From Escherichia phage BP9, in the sequence record PP488543.1: a DNA stretch of 64,000 bases; one strand, 5' to 3'. How positions within the stretch are numbered: the first letter of the stretch is position 1; each line of letters starts with the position of its first letter. Below the pieces are notes generated by a model. That model saw nothing but the letters and a program-made list of their open reading frames with translations. It had not been told where the DNA came from and searched no databases. Below, in pieces: positions 4,034 to 7,607 of the stretch. The translations under genes and the position numbers were made by a program.

Positions 4034-4384
4034 TTACTGCAACAGTTTTTCAATAGCCGCTTCCATGCTGCTTGCAACAGCCTGAACTCGGATATTCATC
4101 TCTTCTTGGTGGATCAGCTCCTTAAGCTCTTTAATGGTAAATTCTTTAGAGAAACCTTCCACCATAATCTTGTGTAAGGCTTCTTGCGTGCCTACTTGCA
4201 AGAACTTTTCCAGTTTGTTGGCAGAGGCTTCTAAATCAGCCCGAATACGAGGGTCATCTGTGCGATTCAGCATTAGACGTAAGCCACCAAGATTAGTAGA
4301 AATAGCGTCTGCATGTTGAGTAACTAACCGTGGCAAAATGAGATCTACAAACTTATTAGCCAAATCGATACGTTCTTGTGTCAC
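4034..4384 (-). CDS. hypothetical protein (116 aa)
   Basis: Track ORF, helical/charged composition. Confidence 0.5.
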   Translation of the reverse strand: MTQERIDLANKFVDLILPRLVTQHADAISTNLGGLRLMLNRTDDPRIRADLEASANKLEKFLQVGTQEALHKIMVEGFSKEFTIKELKELIHQEEMNIRVQAVASSMEAAIEKLLQ

Positions 4385-4558
4385 TGTTGCACCCCCTCTT
4401 CATCCTCATGATGTTTCTTTTCACGCTTGTGTTTTTTCTTAAGCTCAAGCGCAATTTCTTTTTTGTACGCCTTCTTCAAGGCTTTTTTAGCCATTTGGCA
4501 CCTCCTCTGCTTTCATTTTACGATAATTATACCTATCTAAACAAAACTTTGTCAACAA

Positions 4559-5032
4559 CTAGTCTACCTGAACCCAACCGCCTGATACTTTTTTAAACAT
4601 TCTTTGGTTATCACTGCCTCGGAACGGTTTCTTGGTTGGTAAATCTTTTACATACTTACCGTCAATGATGATATCAGCCAGTTTAAGAACATCACTAGAG
4701 ATATGGTCAAATGTGAACCCAGTATATACAAGAATAGTTTTCTTGTCACCAAATTTTTCCTTAATTTTCTCCATCAGGCTAATAATATCTGGCTCATTAT
4801 AGTATGCTAATGGTTCTCCCCCCAGCAGAGAGATACCGCACACAGATGGGTTATCTAAATCTGACAAGATTTTTTGTAAATCTTCTTCAGTGAACTCTCT
4901 CCCCTTATCTTTTGACCAAAATGCCTGATTAAAGCAACCAGGGCAAGCGTGTGGGCACCCAGATACCCACAAGGCAGTTCTAATACCTGGCCCTTCGGTG
5001 TAAGATATTTCTGTGTATCCGGCAATGTTCAT
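4559..5032 (-). CDS. nrdG: anaerobic ribonucleotide reductase activating protein (radical SAM)
   Basis: CPHACPGC radical-SAM cluster motif near N-terminus, 157 aa, immediately downstream of nrdD. Confidence 0.9.
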   Translation of the reverse strand: MNIAGYTEISYTEGPGIRTALWVSGCPHACPGCFNQAFWSKDKGREFTEEDLQKILSDLDNPSVCGISLLGGEPLAYYNEPDIISLMEKIKEKFGDKKTILVYTGFTFDHISSDVLKLADIIIDGKYVKDLPTKKPFRGSDNQRMFKKVSGGWVQVD

Positions 5033-5145
5033 AGATACTCCGCATCACATTTAGGGCAATGCCAAATAAAATCGTCCAGTGCCTTGCACCAACGAAGGTT
5101 GCAACGACAACCACACTTGCAAATTTTATAAATACCTGTAGACAT
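5029..5145 (-). CDS. cysteine-rich micro-protein (38 aa) between nrdD and nrdG
   Basis: Hand translation MSTGIYKICKCGCRCNLRWCKALDDFIWHCPKCDAEYL; AGGAGG 7 nt upstream of ATG; stop overlaps nrdG start as ATGA; below ORF-track length cutoff. Confidence 0.4.
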   Translation of the reverse strand: MSTGIYKICKCGCRCNLRWCKALDDFIWHCPKCDAEYL

Positions 5146-5208
5146 ACTGTACCTCCTAGCTCACTGTGTGTCAATAATATGCCACATCCTTGTGGCTTTT
5201 GTCAAGTA

Positions 5209-7332
5209 TCAGCAACTACAACTTCCATAGTGCTTAACTCGCTCGATAACTTCCGCTTGCTTACCTTTATTGTAAGGACGGGAGTTAGGGCTGGAAAGGT
5301 ATCCGGACACACGTCGAATTACACTGATCGTTCCCTCTTCATGGTTTCCACACTCTGGGCATACAAAGCCTTTAGCTGTTGCACTGAACTCCCCAGAGAA
5401 ACCACACTTAAGACATTTATCCACAGGTTGGTTAATACCAAAATACATAATGTGTTTATACCCGAAGTCAACAAGAGCTTCTAAAGCATCTAAGTTGTTT
5501 TTCAGATTTGGTGTCTCTACATATCCGATGTTTCCACCAGAGGAGATCATAGCAAAACCTTCCTCATACTTCCACTTATCAAAAGGAGAGCTATTGATCC
5601 ATACTGGCTGATGGAAACTGTTGGTGAGATATTCATGCTCGTGCTTCAACACTTCAGGATATTCACGATCCAGACAGGTTGCAGCTTTATAGCATAGACT
5701 CTCAGAAGGGGTGCCGTACAAGCTAAACGCTAGTCTACTTTCCTTCTTGTATCGCTCACAAGCATCTCTCATGTGCTGAAGTATTCCAAGAGCTAAAGCC
5801 TTGTCACCCTCCCTGCCCAAAATCTGACAGGTTTCATACACACCAATATACCCAATACTGATGGAAGCGTACCCTTCATAGAAGAGTTTATCAATACTCT
5901 CTTCAGGATCCAGGCGAGCAAGAGCGCCTTCACACCACATGATAGGGTTCTGCCCTGCCTTTGTTCCTTTTAGACGGTTAACCCTTACAAGGTGAGCCTC
6001 GTATGCAAGACCCAGGTATTCGTCAAGAACTGCAAAGAAATCAACACCTTCCGTTTTAGCTTTTGCCGCAATCATTGGCAGGTTAAGGCTAACAACGCCT
6101 AAGTTAAATCTGCCAAGGTATTTCTCCTCGCCTGTTTCCAAATCATTGTATTTGCTAAGAAAACTCCGGCAACCCATGCTTGTTACTTTACCCTCTGTCG
6201 AGCCTGTCACTTTACGATTTAGTGGAACAGAAACAAAGTCAGGATAAATCCGCTCTGCAGAGCATTCCAGGGCCAATCTTTTCAAATCATAGTTAGGATC
6301 TCCAGGGTTCATGTTGACACCCTCTTCTAGGAAGAACAGCACTTTAGGGAACACAGGTGTGATACGTTCTTCACCAAGACCCATTTTGTGGACTTTCAAG
6401 TAATTTTTGGTAATCATTCTACCAAAGACCGAGGTATCCAGTCCTAAACTTAATGTGATGAATGGAGTTTGCCCGTTGACAGAAGTTAACGTATTGATTT
6501 GATAGAGTAAAGTCTGCATGCTGTCAAATACGTCTTTATCTGTCATTTGCATTGCAACAGTCTCAGCATCTGGCAACCAATGTTCCTGGCAAAATTTAAG
6601 GTTCTTCTCATAGGTCGCTTCAGCATACTGTGCCAGATAATGATCAATATGGCTCATAGTCTGACCTCCATATTGAGCACTAGCTACTGCACTAGAGATT
6701 TGGCTAAGGATTGTTGTTGCAACCCCTATTGACTTCGGCTTACTGACATGGGCGTTACCAATGTTGAATCCGTTTTCCAACATATCTGGATAATTTACCA
6801 AACAACAGTTTGTTAACGGACTGATCAAATAGTCAAGATCATGCACATGGATGAAGCCTTTATTGTGCTCTTCTGAGACACGGTCTGGCAGGATCTGTGT
6901 TGATGCAAGGTGTTTGCTAAGGATGCCTGCAAGCAGGTCACGATGAGTGTGTACATGATTGGTAGGCTTATTTGCGTTTTCTTTTGTAAATTCATCACAA
7001 GTGCGATCCAAGAAGCCACTAATATCTGCAAGCAGTTTTCCACCTGCCTCTCTGTTATTATCTCTTGTCTGCCTATACTGGATGTATTCTCTGGCTGCAC
7101 ATTTTAAACCCATATCCATAAGAGCGTCTTCAACAAGGATATGGATATTTTTTACAGAGATCGTGCACTGGTCGATTGGTAGATTGTTAGCAACAACTTC
7201 ATTAACCGCGCAGGCGATCCGGTAAGCTTCTTCTTCAGTATGTCCAGACTCAAGTAAGGCGGACTCTGCCGCCTTGATCACCTTAATTCCGTTATAGACC
7301 TCTTCTCTACCGTCCCGTTTTACAACTTTCAC
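5209..7332 (-). CDS. nrdD: anaerobic ribonucleoside-triphosphate reductase
   Basis: C-terminal glycyl-radical motif RRVSGYL, zinc-ribbon CLKCGF...CPECG, 707 aa. Confidence 0.92.
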   Translation of the reverse strand: MKVVKRDGREEVYNGIKVIKAAESALLESGHTEEEAYRIACAVNEVVANNLPIDQCTISVKNIHILVEDALMDMGLKCAAREYIQYRQTRDNNREAGGKLLADISGFLDRTCDEFTKENANKPTNHVHTHRDLLAGILSKHLASTQILPDRVSEEHNKGFIHVHDLDYLISPLTNCCLVNYPDMLENGFNIGNAHVSKPKSIGVATTILSQISSAVASAQYGGQTMSHIDHYLAQYAEATYEKNLKFCQEHWLPDAETVAMQMTDKDVFDSMQTLLYQINTLTSVNGQTPFITLSLGLDTSVFGRMITKNYLKVHKMGLGEERITPVFPKVLFFLEEGVNMNPGDPNYDLKRLALECSAERIYPDFVSVPLNRKVTGSTEGKVTSMGCRSFLSKYNDLETGEEKYLGRFNLGVVSLNLPMIAAKAKTEGVDFFAVLDEYLGLAYEAHLVRVNRLKGTKAGQNPIMWCEGALARLDPEESIDKLFYEGYASISIGYIGVYETCQILGREGDKALALGILQHMRDACERYKKESRLAFSLYGTPSESLCYKAATCLDREYPEVLKHEHEYLTNSFHQPVWINSSPFDKWKYEEGFAMISSGGNIGYVETPNLKNNLDALEALVDFGYKHIMYFGINQPVDKCLKCGFSGEFSATAKGFVCPECGNHEEGTISVIRRVSGYLSSPNSRPYNKGKQAEVIERVKHYGSCSC

Positions 7333-7607
7333 TTTTTCTCTCCAAAACCATTCTTAACAAAAGAGATGAAATCATCGGCACCGCCTATATGGGCACTTTC
7401 AAGATTACTTTCTAAGAAGATCTGCGGCAACGTTCTGGGTACGATTGGACTGCACTTCTCAATAAGCTCTTCTTTTGTGTAACCCTCGCCAAGTGTCTTA
7501 TATACAAAAGGCAGACCTTTACTGACTGCAAATTCTTTTGCTCTTACACAATGTGGGCAGTTATCTTTACCGTAAATAATAAAGAAAAAAGATTTTTCAC
7601 AGCTCAT
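7329..7607 (-). CDS. glutaredoxin-like protein
   Basis: CPHC redox motif in YGKDNCPHCVRAKEF, 92 aa, between nrdD and nrdB. Confidence 0.75.
   Translation of the reverse strand: MSCEKSFFFIIYGKDNCPHCVRAKEFAVSKGLPFVYKTLGEGYTKEELIEKCSPIVPRTLPQIFLESNLESAHIGGADDFISFVKNGFGEKK

What the first reader, a model, noticed from the sequence alone, without database searches (positions are those of the whole stretch)
5029..5145. Cysteine-rich 38-aa micro-ORF between nrdD and nrdG
An unlisted minus-strand ORF with a strong SD (AGGAGG, 7-nt spacer) encodes a peptide with 8 Cys and 1 His in CxC/CxC/C..C/CPKC spacing, and its stop overlaps the nrdG start codon. It could be a metal-binding factor linked to the anaerobic reductase and its radical-SAM activase.
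Basis: seen in the sequence. Interest (0 to 1): 0.5.

Follow-up and report, generated by a model that had tools for sequence, protein, structure and literature searches.

The report
Conserved zinc-ribbon micro-gene before nrdG
The 38-codon reading frame is a real, strongly conserved phage gene for a tiny cysteine-rich zinc-ribbon protein, but relatives show it is a portable small-gene cassette of unknown role, not a dedicated helper of the neighbouring anaerobic ribonucleotide reductase.

Summary
The window comes from an rV5-like E. coli myophage (Vequintavirus). The ORF at 5029..5145 (-) exists as described, with two corrections: it has 7 Cys, not 8, and the SD spacer is 6 nt, not 7. It is a genuine coding gene. 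It matches PHROG 20137 over its full length and is already annotated as hypothetical in many GenBank records. It is intact in about 120 phage genomes, with pN/pS 0.11 in its own frame against 1.0 and 1.9 in the other two. All 7 Cys are invariant, and every copy has its own SD. AlphaFold and Foldseek give a three-stranded zinc ribbon (CX1-2C-X18-CX2C) carrying three extra invariant Cys.

The proposed link to NrdD/NrdG is weak. The gene stays nearly unchanged in front of three NrdG alleles that are only about 52-55% identical to each other. In 33 genomes, including rV5 itself, two other ORFs separate it from nrdG. It is absent from every other nrdDG phage examined, including a sister genus. It also occurs, about 80% identical, in SP6-like podophages that lack nrdDG, where it overlaps the DNA ligase start inside a variable small-ORF slot.

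Best reading: an autonomous, horizontally mobile metal-binding microprotein, probably aimed at a host or otherwise common target. Modest interest.

The parts
5029..5145 (-). Micro-gene CDS, 38 aa, a 7-Cys zinc-ribbon microprotein (PHROG 20137)
   Evidence: ORF listing. PHROG 20137 E=1.8e-31 over 38/38 positions. Purifying selection, pN/pS 0.11. Zinc-ribbon model.
5152..5157 (-). Shine-Dalgarno AGGAGG, 6 nt before the ATG
   Evidence: Sequence. An SD 6-8 nt upstream is present in all nine copies inspected, in four different upstream contexts.
5176..5205 (-). Sigma-70-like promoter TTGACA-18-CATATT with TG before the -10, upstream of micro-gene and nrdG
   Evidence: Consensus scan, 10 of 12 matches. 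This is a consensus match only; function is inferred.
5181..5196 (-). GCCACA-AGGA-TGTGGC hairpin followed by a T-rich tail; terminator-like element after nrdD, lying inside the promoter spacer
   Evidence: Terminator scan. The hairpin is retained upstream of the homing-endonuclease insertion in typing phage 14.
5029..5041 (-). 3' end of the cassette: GGAG (5041..5038), a 5-nt spacer, then ATGA. It supplies the SD and start codon for the downstream gene and encodes the invariant C-terminal E-Y-L.
   Evidence: Sequence. The same ...CGGAGTAYYTRTGAAYAT junction is found in front of nrdG alleles A and C and in front of DNA ligase in SP6-like phages.
4559..5032 (-). nrdG, class III RNR activase (radical SAM), 157 aa; a neighbour, not shown to be a partner
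   Evidence: Pfam Fer4_12 E=9e-43 and Radical_SAM. PHROG 626.
5209..7332 (-). nrdD, class III RNR catalytic subunit, 707 aa, intact; a neighbour
   Evidence: Pfam NRDD E=1.8e-160, Gly_radical, ATP-cone.

Best explanation
The ORF is a bona fide phage gene encoding a 36-54-aa single-domain zinc-ribbon microprotein. The inferred metal site is C9/C11 (first knuckle, CxC or CxxC) plus C30/C33 (CPxC), 18 residues apart. These bracket a beta-hairpin. Three further invariant cysteines (C13, C15, C20) probably form a second metal, redox or intermolecular site.

The gene is a self-contained, horizontally mobile cassette. It carries its own SD, and its 3' end (…GGAGTAYYTATGA) provides the SD and start codon for whatever gene follows. 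Its sequence is almost constant in front of three divergent nrdG alleles, in front of unrelated small ORFs, and in front of DNA ligase in a different phage family. What those infections share, as far as the hosts are recorded, is E. coli. I therefore infer that the protein works independently of its neighbours, as a small metal-stabilised binding module directed at a common target such as a host protein or a nucleic acid, during early or middle infection.

Shown: coding status, conservation, contexts, and the predicted fold. Inferred: metal binding, ligand assignment, autonomy from NrdG, and a host-directed target.
For: Coding status.
- pN/pS is 0.11 in the ORF frame against 1.03 and 1.90 in the other frames. 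Variable sites by codon position are 9/2/19. Six of the seven Cys codons lie in the aligned core, and five of them (C11, C13, C15, C20, C33) show synonymous TGT/TGC changes in Vequintavirus-type and SP6-type copies alike; the sixth (C30) varies in one Vequintavirus-like contig only.
- The ORF is intact in about 120 phage records at 80% identity or more.
- The family has only 14 clusters among 5.8 billion proteins, and all 7 Cys are invariant in the 12 intact clusters; the other two are a frameshifted and a deletion-fusion variant.
- An SD precedes every copy.
- There is no notable RNA structure; z = -0.54.

Fold.
- Two independent AF2 models (the 38-aa and 54-aa variants) give the same three-strand topology, with pLDDT 70 and 66.
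- The top Foldseek PDB hits for both models are zinc ribbons: Rpb9, ZifS, and the ribbon of a NUDIX hydrolase. TMq is 0.7-0.75 and rmsd 1.0-1.4 A over 32-34 residues.
- The only weak sequence hits are zinc-ribbon knuckles: the HVO_0758-type CPxCG protein and eL43.

Autonomy from NrdG.
- 33 records, including rV5 itself, have micro-gene, 34-aa ORF, 78-aa ORF, then an nrdG allele that is 51.6% identical. The micro-protein there differs at only one or two residues.
- Contigs L007 and L008 have NrdG 52-55% identical, yet the micro core is 79-82% identical.
- In the SP6-like phage ACG-C91 and two metagenomic relatives, the gene sits between a DUF3310 nucleotide kinase and an ATP-dependent DNA ligase, again with the ATGA overlap. 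There is no NrdD or NrdG in that genome.
- That slot holds alternative cassettes in sister phages.
- The nrdD and nrdG genes of Certrevirus CB7 and of the Phapecoctavirus phage ukendt (NrdG 48% identical) overlap directly, with no micro-gene. T4-like, FelixO1-like and jumbo phages carry unrelated, non-Cys-rich ORFs in the intervening stretch.
Against: - There is no direct evidence of translation, of metal content or of any binding partner.
- Within Vequintavirus the gene is always located between nrdD and nrdG. It shares a promoter-like site with nrdG, and in about 84 genomes it is translationally coupled to nrdG. That is what an operon partner would look like.
- The E. coli host has its own NrdDG, so the SP6-like context does not formally exclude an activase-related role.
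- Seven invariant Cys are more than a structural zinc ribbon needs, and could indicate redox or Fe-S chemistry.
- High conservation could partly reflect recent horizontal spread rather than constraint from a common target.
- AF2 confidence is only moderate, and the Foldseek E-values are not significant because the protein is so short.
Confidence: 0.5

Rival explanations
1. Accessory factor of the class III RNR. A rubredoxin-like or Fe-S mini-protein delivers electrons or metal to the NrdG [4Fe-4S] cluster, or chaperones NrdD-NrdG activation. In SP6-like phages it would act on the host NrdDG.
For: - It lies between nrdD and nrdG in all Vequintavirus-type copies (about 119 records) and survives homing-endonuclease insertions and nrdG allele replacement.
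- It shares a promoter-like site with nrdG and has the ATGA coupling.
- It has seven invariant Cys.
- The CX(1-2)C…(W)xCPxC knuckles resemble the rubredoxin type (own knowledge).
- RNR operons in bacteria often carry small redox helpers: YfaE, NrdH, NrdI (established knowledge).
Against: - It does not co-vary with NrdG across three alleles about 50% identical to each other.
- It is uncoupled from nrdG in 33 genomes.
- A tblastn search of all 50,697 phage records at E<=10 found it outside Vequintavirus only in the SP6-like phage ACG-C91, although more than 2,100 records encode a divergent NrdG, including sister genus Certrevirus.
- It is present, in the same coupled layout, in front of DNA ligase in nrdDG-less podophages, where it is one of three interchangeable cassettes.
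- There is no Pfam or NCBIfam hit to rubredoxin, ferredoxin, NrdH or NrdI.
Confidence: 0.2
2. A Com-like translational regulator. The small zinc-finger protein binds its own mRNA near the conserved 3' junction and controls translation of the overlapping downstream gene, as phage Mu Com does for mom.
For: - It is a zinc-ribbon protein whose gene overlaps the start of the next gene in most contexts.
- The conserved junction CGGAGTAYYTATGAAYAT travels with the cassette in front of different genes.
- The Mu com/mom analogy comes from my own knowledge.
Against: - There is no Pfam hit to any family, including Com-type zinc ribbons.
- No stable RNA structure sequesters the region; z = -0.54.
- In rV5-type genomes the junction is replaced (…TACTTATAAGC) while the protein is unchanged.
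- nrdG has an ordinary exposed GGAG SD.
Confidence: 0.08
3. An upstream ORF that serves only for translational coupling or ribosome delivery to nrdG; the peptide itself has no function.
For: The 4-nt ATGA overlap with nrdG, and with ligase in the SP6-like phages.
Against: - The amino-acid sequence is under strong purifying selection, with all Cys invariant despite synonymous changes.
- The gene is kept intact where it is not coupled to nrdG.
- nrdG has its own SD.
Confidence: 0.03
4. Not a gene: an intergenic promoter/terminator region that happens to be open, as implied by records that leave it unannotated or mark a terminator inside it.
For: - The Murica record annotates a terminator inside the ORF.
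- The scan finds a weak terminator-like hairpin at 5092..5076.
- Several records omit the CDS.
Against: The frame-specific substitution pattern, the conserved SD, conservation of the frame across different DNA backgrounds including a replaced 5' half in typing phage 14, and the full-length PHROG match.
Confidence: 0.02

Closest known systems
Zinc-ribbon domains (Rpb9/TFIIS type; small stand-alone zinc fingers such as T. thermophilus ZifS and the haloarchaeal CPxCG micro-proteins, HVO_0758 family)
   Same: Two Cys knuckles 18 residues apart flank a beta-hairpin, followed by a third strand. These are the best structural matches: TMq 0.7-0.75, rmsd 1.0-1.4 A. The weak knuckle-level sequence hits point the same way. 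Like the stand-alone examples, it is a single-domain microprotein.
   Different: There is no significant sequence homology. The first knuckle is CxC in most members rather than CxxC. Three additional invariant Cys (C13, C15, C20) have no counterpart. The family is restricted to two groups of E. coli phages.
Rubredoxin / desulforedoxin (small Fe(Cys)4 redox proteins)
   Same: Very small size, Cys4 knuckle geometry, and an aromatic residue before CPxC (own knowledge).
   Different: No HMM match to rubredoxin families. The metal is unknown. The topology matches zinc ribbons best.
Small redox helpers encoded in RNR operons (YfaE [2Fe-2S] ferredoxin, NrdH, NrdI)
   Same: A small protein encoded next to RNR genes; potential metal or redox chemistry.
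   Different: Unrelated folds and no homology. Unlike those helpers, this gene does not track RNR genes across genomes: it is absent from other nrdDG phages and present in nrdDG-less phages.
Phage Mu Com (zinc-finger translational activator whose gene overlaps mom)
   Same: A small Cys4 zinc-finger protein encoded immediately upstream of, and overlapping, the next gene (own knowledge).
   Different: No sequence similarity detected, no inhibitory RNA hairpin, and the downstream genes differ between genomes.
Host-directed zinc-finger microproteins of plasmids and phages (TraR / lambda Orf73, which bind RNA polymerase; PMC9239242)
   Same: A precedent that short Cys4 proteins of mobile elements act on a conserved host machine and therefore stay conserved across unrelated elements.
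   Different: TraR and Orf73 are distant DksA homologues according to PMC9239242; that they have a different, coiled-coil fold is my own knowledge. No homology was found, and no target is known here.

Membership tests
PHROG 20137 (phage orthologous group labelled 'ribonucleotide reductase') | Full-length HMM match | tested here: met
   E=1.8e-31 over 38/38 positions; the 54-aa variant scores E=7.8e-21. The functional label looks like guilt by association with the neighbouring genes, since there is no RNR domain.
Zinc-ribbon fold | Two Cys-x(1-2/2)-Cys knuckles separated by a beta-hairpin, followed by a third strand | tested here: met
   Motif C9-x-C11 (CxxC in the 41-54-aa variants) …18 residues… C30-P-x-C33. 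AF2 strands 16-20, 25-30 and 35-37, with the same topology in the 54-aa variant. The top Foldseek hits are zinc ribbons. Model confidence is moderate (pLDDT 66-70).
Zinc-ribbon fold | Binds one Zn(II) through four Cys | not testable with these tools
   Needs metal analysis of purified protein.
Rubredoxin family | Match to the rubredoxin profile (CxxCG…CPxCG within a conserved core of about 50 aa) | tested here: not met
   No Pfam or NCBIfam family at E<=1 (38-aa form; 54-aa form in NCBIfam) or at E<=0.1 (54-aa form in Pfam).
Class III RNR accessory protein (hypothetical class) | Co-occurrence with nrdD/nrdG across genomes | tested here: not met
   Present in nrdDG-less SP6-like phages. Absent from CB7, the Phapecoctavirus phage ukendt, and T4-like, FelixO1-like and jumbo phages that have nrdDG.
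Class III RNR accessory protein (hypothetical class) | Co-variation with, or physical interaction with, NrdG or NrdD | tested here: inconclusive
   There is no co-variation: the micro core stays 79-97% identical while NrdG is 52-55% identical. Physical interaction cannot be tested with these tools.
Mu Com-like translational activators | Sequence homology to Com, and a translation-blocking hairpin at the downstream start | tested here: not met
   No Pfam hit. RNA fold z = -0.54.
NrdD C-terminal zinc ribbon (possible origin by duplication) | Detectable profile similarity | tested here: not met
   hhalign probability 11%, with only knuckle-level similarity.

The most novel reading that the evidence does not exclude
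The seven invariant cysteines build two centres: a rubredoxin-like Cys4 site, and a three-Cys site completed by a partner. The microprotein would then be a phage-encoded minimal redox or metal-delivery factor for glycyl-radical activases (phage or host NrdG), boosting anaerobic dNTP supply in the gut. That would explain both its fixed place beside nrdG in rV5-like phages and its spread to nrdDG-less coliphages that rely on the host enzyme.
Probability: 0.12. Interest if true: 0.65.

Novelty: new member of a known kind. Interest (0 to 1): 0.3.

Why it matters
As it stands, this is one more uncharacterised zinc-ribbon microprotein of the kind phage genomes are full of. It is already present in databases as a hypothetical protein.

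Two things make it mildly useful.
- It is a clean example of a 36-54-aa gene that can be validated purely by comparative genomics, and that several annotation pipelines miss or overwrite with a 'terminator'.
- It moves between a myophage genus and an SP6-like podophage genus as a precise cassette that brings the SD and start codon for the next gene. It is also better conserved than its enzyme neighbours. Both point to a conserved target worth identifying.

If it turned out to service glycyl-radical activases, it would be a new class of RNR accessory factor.

Tried and rejected
- Remote homology. An HMM of the family against 1.84 billion representatives found only the family itself plus one spurious repeat protein.
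- Derivation from the NrdD C-terminal zinc ribbon: only generic knuckle similarity.
- Homology to the 38-aa zinc ribbon that occupies the same slot in phage K1E: not supported; hhalign aligns only CPxC.
- The idea that the extra Cys pair with a Cys-rich NrdD C-terminal tail (…GSCSC or …DCCPLSK): the tail is absent in L007 and L008, which still carry the micro-gene.
- A recurrent 'Cys-rich ORF at the nrdD-nrdG junction' theme in other phages: not found; the ORFs there are unrelated and not Cys-rich.
- Functional RNA element or terminator instead of a gene: no significant structure, and the substitution pattern is that of a coding sequence.
- Literature. No paper in the library discusses this ORF, and no Vequintavirus Ribo-seq or transcriptome covering it was found.
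- Co-folding with NrdG could not be done: the tool takes single chains and only native sequences.

Full report
**What the window is.** The segment 4300-5600 is 96-98.5% identical to many Escherichia phages of the genus Vequintavirus (rV5-like myophages). On the minus strand the local gene order is as follows:
- nrdB-like gene;
- glutaredoxin (7329..7607);
- nrdD (5209..7332; Pfam NRDD, Gly_radical, ATP-cone);
- the micro-ORF (5029..5145);
- nrdG (4559..5032; Fer4_12/Radical_SAM);
- a 37-aa Lys-rich ORF;
- a 116-aa ORF;
- a 262-aa ORF that aligns with the gene annotated PhoH-like in related records.

**The observation.** The ORF is there exactly as given: ATG at 5145, 38 codons, and a stop TGA that shares ATGA with the nrdG start. 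The SD AGGAGG is at 5157..5152, 6 nt (not 7) from the ATG. The peptide MSTGIYKICKCGCRCNLRWCKALDDFIWHCPKCDAEYL has 7 Cys (not 8) and one His. It is the most Cys-rich of all 634 ORFs of at least 30 aa in the window, at 18% against a mean of 2.9%. A sigma-70-like promoter (TTGACA-18-CATATT, 5205..5176) and a terminator-like hairpin after nrdD (5196..5181) lie just upstream.

**Is it a gene?** Yes.
- It matches PHROG 20137 over its full length (E=1.8e-31). Many GenBank records annotate it as a hypothetical protein or, by association, 'ribonucleotide reductase'. Other records omit it or place a terminator inside it.
- tblastn finds it intact in about 120 phage records at 80% identity or more.
- A profile search of 5.8 billion proteins returns only 14 clusters. 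A full HMM scan of 1.84 billion representatives returns only the family itself plus one spurious repeat protein. It is therefore a narrow ORFan family.
- Members are 36, 38, 41 or 53-54 aa long. The long forms add a disordered Lys/Glu-rich N-terminal tail. All seven Cys are invariant, as are G12, L17, R18, W19, L23, D24, D25, I27, W28, P31, E36, Y37 and L38. His29 alternates with Tyr.
- On ten distinct DNA copies, pN/pS is 0.11 in the ORF frame against 1.03 and 1.90 in the other two frames. Variable sites fall 9/2/19 on codon positions 1/2/3, and the Cys codons themselves toggle between TGT and TGC.
- Every copy, in four different upstream sequence contexts, has an SD 6-8 nt before its ATG.
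- In O157 typing phage 14 the 5' half of the gene has been replaced along with a homing-endonuclease insertion, yet the frame and Cys pattern are kept (CKHCGCKC).
- The RNA has no unusual structure; z = -0.54.

**What the protein looks like.** AlphaFold2 models of the 38-aa and the 54-aa variants give the same three-stranded sheet, at moderate confidence (pLDDT 70 and 66); the extra N-terminal tail of the long form is of low confidence. For both models the best PDB matches are zinc ribbons: the Rpb9 ribbon, the small zinc-finger protein ZifS, and the ribbon of a NUDIX hydrolase. TMq is 0.7-0.75 and rmsd 1.0-1.4 A over 32-34 residues. The E-values are not significant, as expected for 38 residues. 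In the viral structure library, only the family's own member and a crowd of uncharacterised small zinc fingers appear. The weak sequence hits are also zinc-ribbon knuckles: the CPxCG micro-protein 8q5b/HVO_0758 and eL43 'IWHCPKCG'.

The canonical ligand set is therefore inferred to be C9/C11 (CxC, or CxxC in the longer variants) and C30/C33, 18 residues apart. Three invariant Cys (C13, C15, C20) are unaccounted for. They may form a second or intermolecular metal site, but this cannot be decided here.

**Is it tied to NrdD/NrdG?** The comparative evidence says not specifically.
- (a) Vequintavirus genomes come in two arrangements. In the window type (about 84 records), the micro-gene overlaps nrdG. 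In the rV5 type (33 records, including the type phage and PMBT16), the micro-gene is followed by a 34-aa and a 78-aa ORF, then a different nrdG allele only 51.6% identical. The micro-protein there differs at one or two residues.
- (b) Two more divergent Vequintavirus-like contigs carry a third NrdG allele (52-55% identical), while the micro core stays 79-82% identical. The micro-gene is thus better conserved than its neighbour and does not co-vary with it.
- (c) In the same subfamily, Certrevirus CB7 has nrdD overlapping nrdG directly, with no micro-gene. The same holds for the Phapecoctavirus phage ukendt, whose NrdG is 48% identical. T4-like, FelixO1-like and jumbo phages carry unrelated, non-Cys-rich ORFs, or nothing, at the junction.
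- (d) The family also occurs in SP6-like podophages (Vectrevirus ACG-C91 and two metagenomic variants), about 80% identical at the protein level. It lies between the DUF3310 nucleotide kinase and the ATP-dependent DNA ligase and overlaps the ligase ATG through the same …GGAGTATTTATGAATAT junction.
- ACG-C91 has no NrdD or NrdG.
- In sister Vectrevirus genomes the same slot holds other cassettes: a different 38-aa Cys4 zinc ribbon in K1E, not demonstrably homologous, and a 57-aa Cys-free ORF in vB_EcoP_B. All of them end in ATGA on the ligase start.
- (e) The nrdD-nrdG interval is an insertion hotspot. Free-standing T5orf172/DUF723 and HNH-type endonuclease genes sit between nrdD and the micro-gene in several genomes. 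Position alone is therefore weak evidence.

**Best explanation and rivals.** I conclude that this is a real, autonomous, horizontally mobile micro-gene encoding a metal-binding zinc-ribbon protein. Its 3' end doubles as the translation-initiation region for whatever follows it. Its sequence is nearly constant across three NrdG alleles and a ligase context, and the hosts recorded for these phages are almost all E. coli. The most economical inference is therefore a target common to all those infections, such as a host protein or a nucleic acid, rather than the neighbouring enzyme (overall confidence about 0.5; gene reality about 0.95; zinc-ribbon fold about 0.85).

The points in its favour are the gene's fixed location in Vequintavirus, the surplus of invariant Cys, and the host's own NrdDG. 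It is not the parsimonious reading. A Com-like translational regulator (about 0.08), a pure coupling uORF (about 0.03) and a non-gene (about 0.02) are disfavoured for the reasons listed under the rivals.

**Novelty and interest.** The ORF is already in GenBank and PHROGs as an uncharacterised protein, and its fold class is common in phages. I rate it a new, uncharacterised member of a known kind, with modest interest (0.3). The notable points are the seven invariant Cys in 36-38 residues, the precise cassette transfer between a myophage and a podophage lineage, and conservation that exceeds that of the adjacent enzymes.

Noticed in passing
window 4300-5600, versus GenBank MG0656xx records: Eighteen or nineteen records named 'Campylobacter phage' (for example C15, A12a, C7) are 96-97% identical to E. 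coli Vequintavirus over this region and carry the micro-gene. They are probably mislabelled or are co-isolated coliphages.
   Followed up: no
window 5209-5230 (the NrdD C-terminus); L010 890-911: NrdD ends in a short Cys-containing tail: …KHYGSCSC* in the window type and …KHVGNVDCCPLSK* in the rV5/PMBT16 type. The tail is absent from the NrdD of L007, L008, Phapecoctavirus (ukendt), T4-like and jumbo phages. Its function is unknown, and it does not co-occur strictly with the micro-gene.
   Followed up: partly
window 4381-4494 (-), promoter 4526-4555: A 37-aa Lys-rich ORF (MAKKALKKAYKKEIALELKKKHKREKKHHEDEEGVQQ, PHROG 7670) lies directly after nrdG. It has a perfect TTGACA-18-TATAAT promoter and a 4-nt overlap with the next ORF, 4034..4384 (PHROG 7650).
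   Followed up: no
L017 599-715 (phage K1E); L018 599-772 (vB_EcoP_B); L004 3998-4108 (ACG-C91): In SP6-like Vectrevirus genomes, the slot between the nucleotide kinase and the DNA ligase holds at least three mutually exclusive small ORFs: the 7-Cys family, another 38-aa CX2CX18CX2C zinc ribbon, and a 57-aa Cys-free ORF. Each ends in ATGA on the ligase start codon.
   Followed up: partly
L005 279-1439; L010 1090-1947; L007 3279-3971; L001 1556-2089: Free-standing homing-endonuclease-like genes (DUF723 repeats with T5orf172/MUG113; DUF723 with HNH_3; HNH) are inserted between nrdD and the micro-gene, or split nrdD, in various Vequintavirus genomes. The window's nrdD is intact, and no such gene lies in its 63-nt nrdD-to-micro-gene spacer. 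In typing phage 14 the insertion coincides with replacement of the 5' half of the micro-gene.
   Followed up: partly
P0004 (phage Alma) and P0014 (ENA contig): Two rare variants are disrupted. One has a C-terminal frameshift that reads into the next ORF. The other has a deletion that fuses residues 1-20 to the C-terminus of the 78-aa PHROG 3249 protein. Either the gene is occasionally lost, or these are assembly errors.
   Followed up: no
PHROG 20137 and PHROG 13972 labels: These small-ORF families carry enzyme names ('ribonucleotide reductase', 'DNA ligase') that seem to be inherited from neighbouring genes rather than from any domain content. This is a possible source of annotation error.
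   Followed up: no
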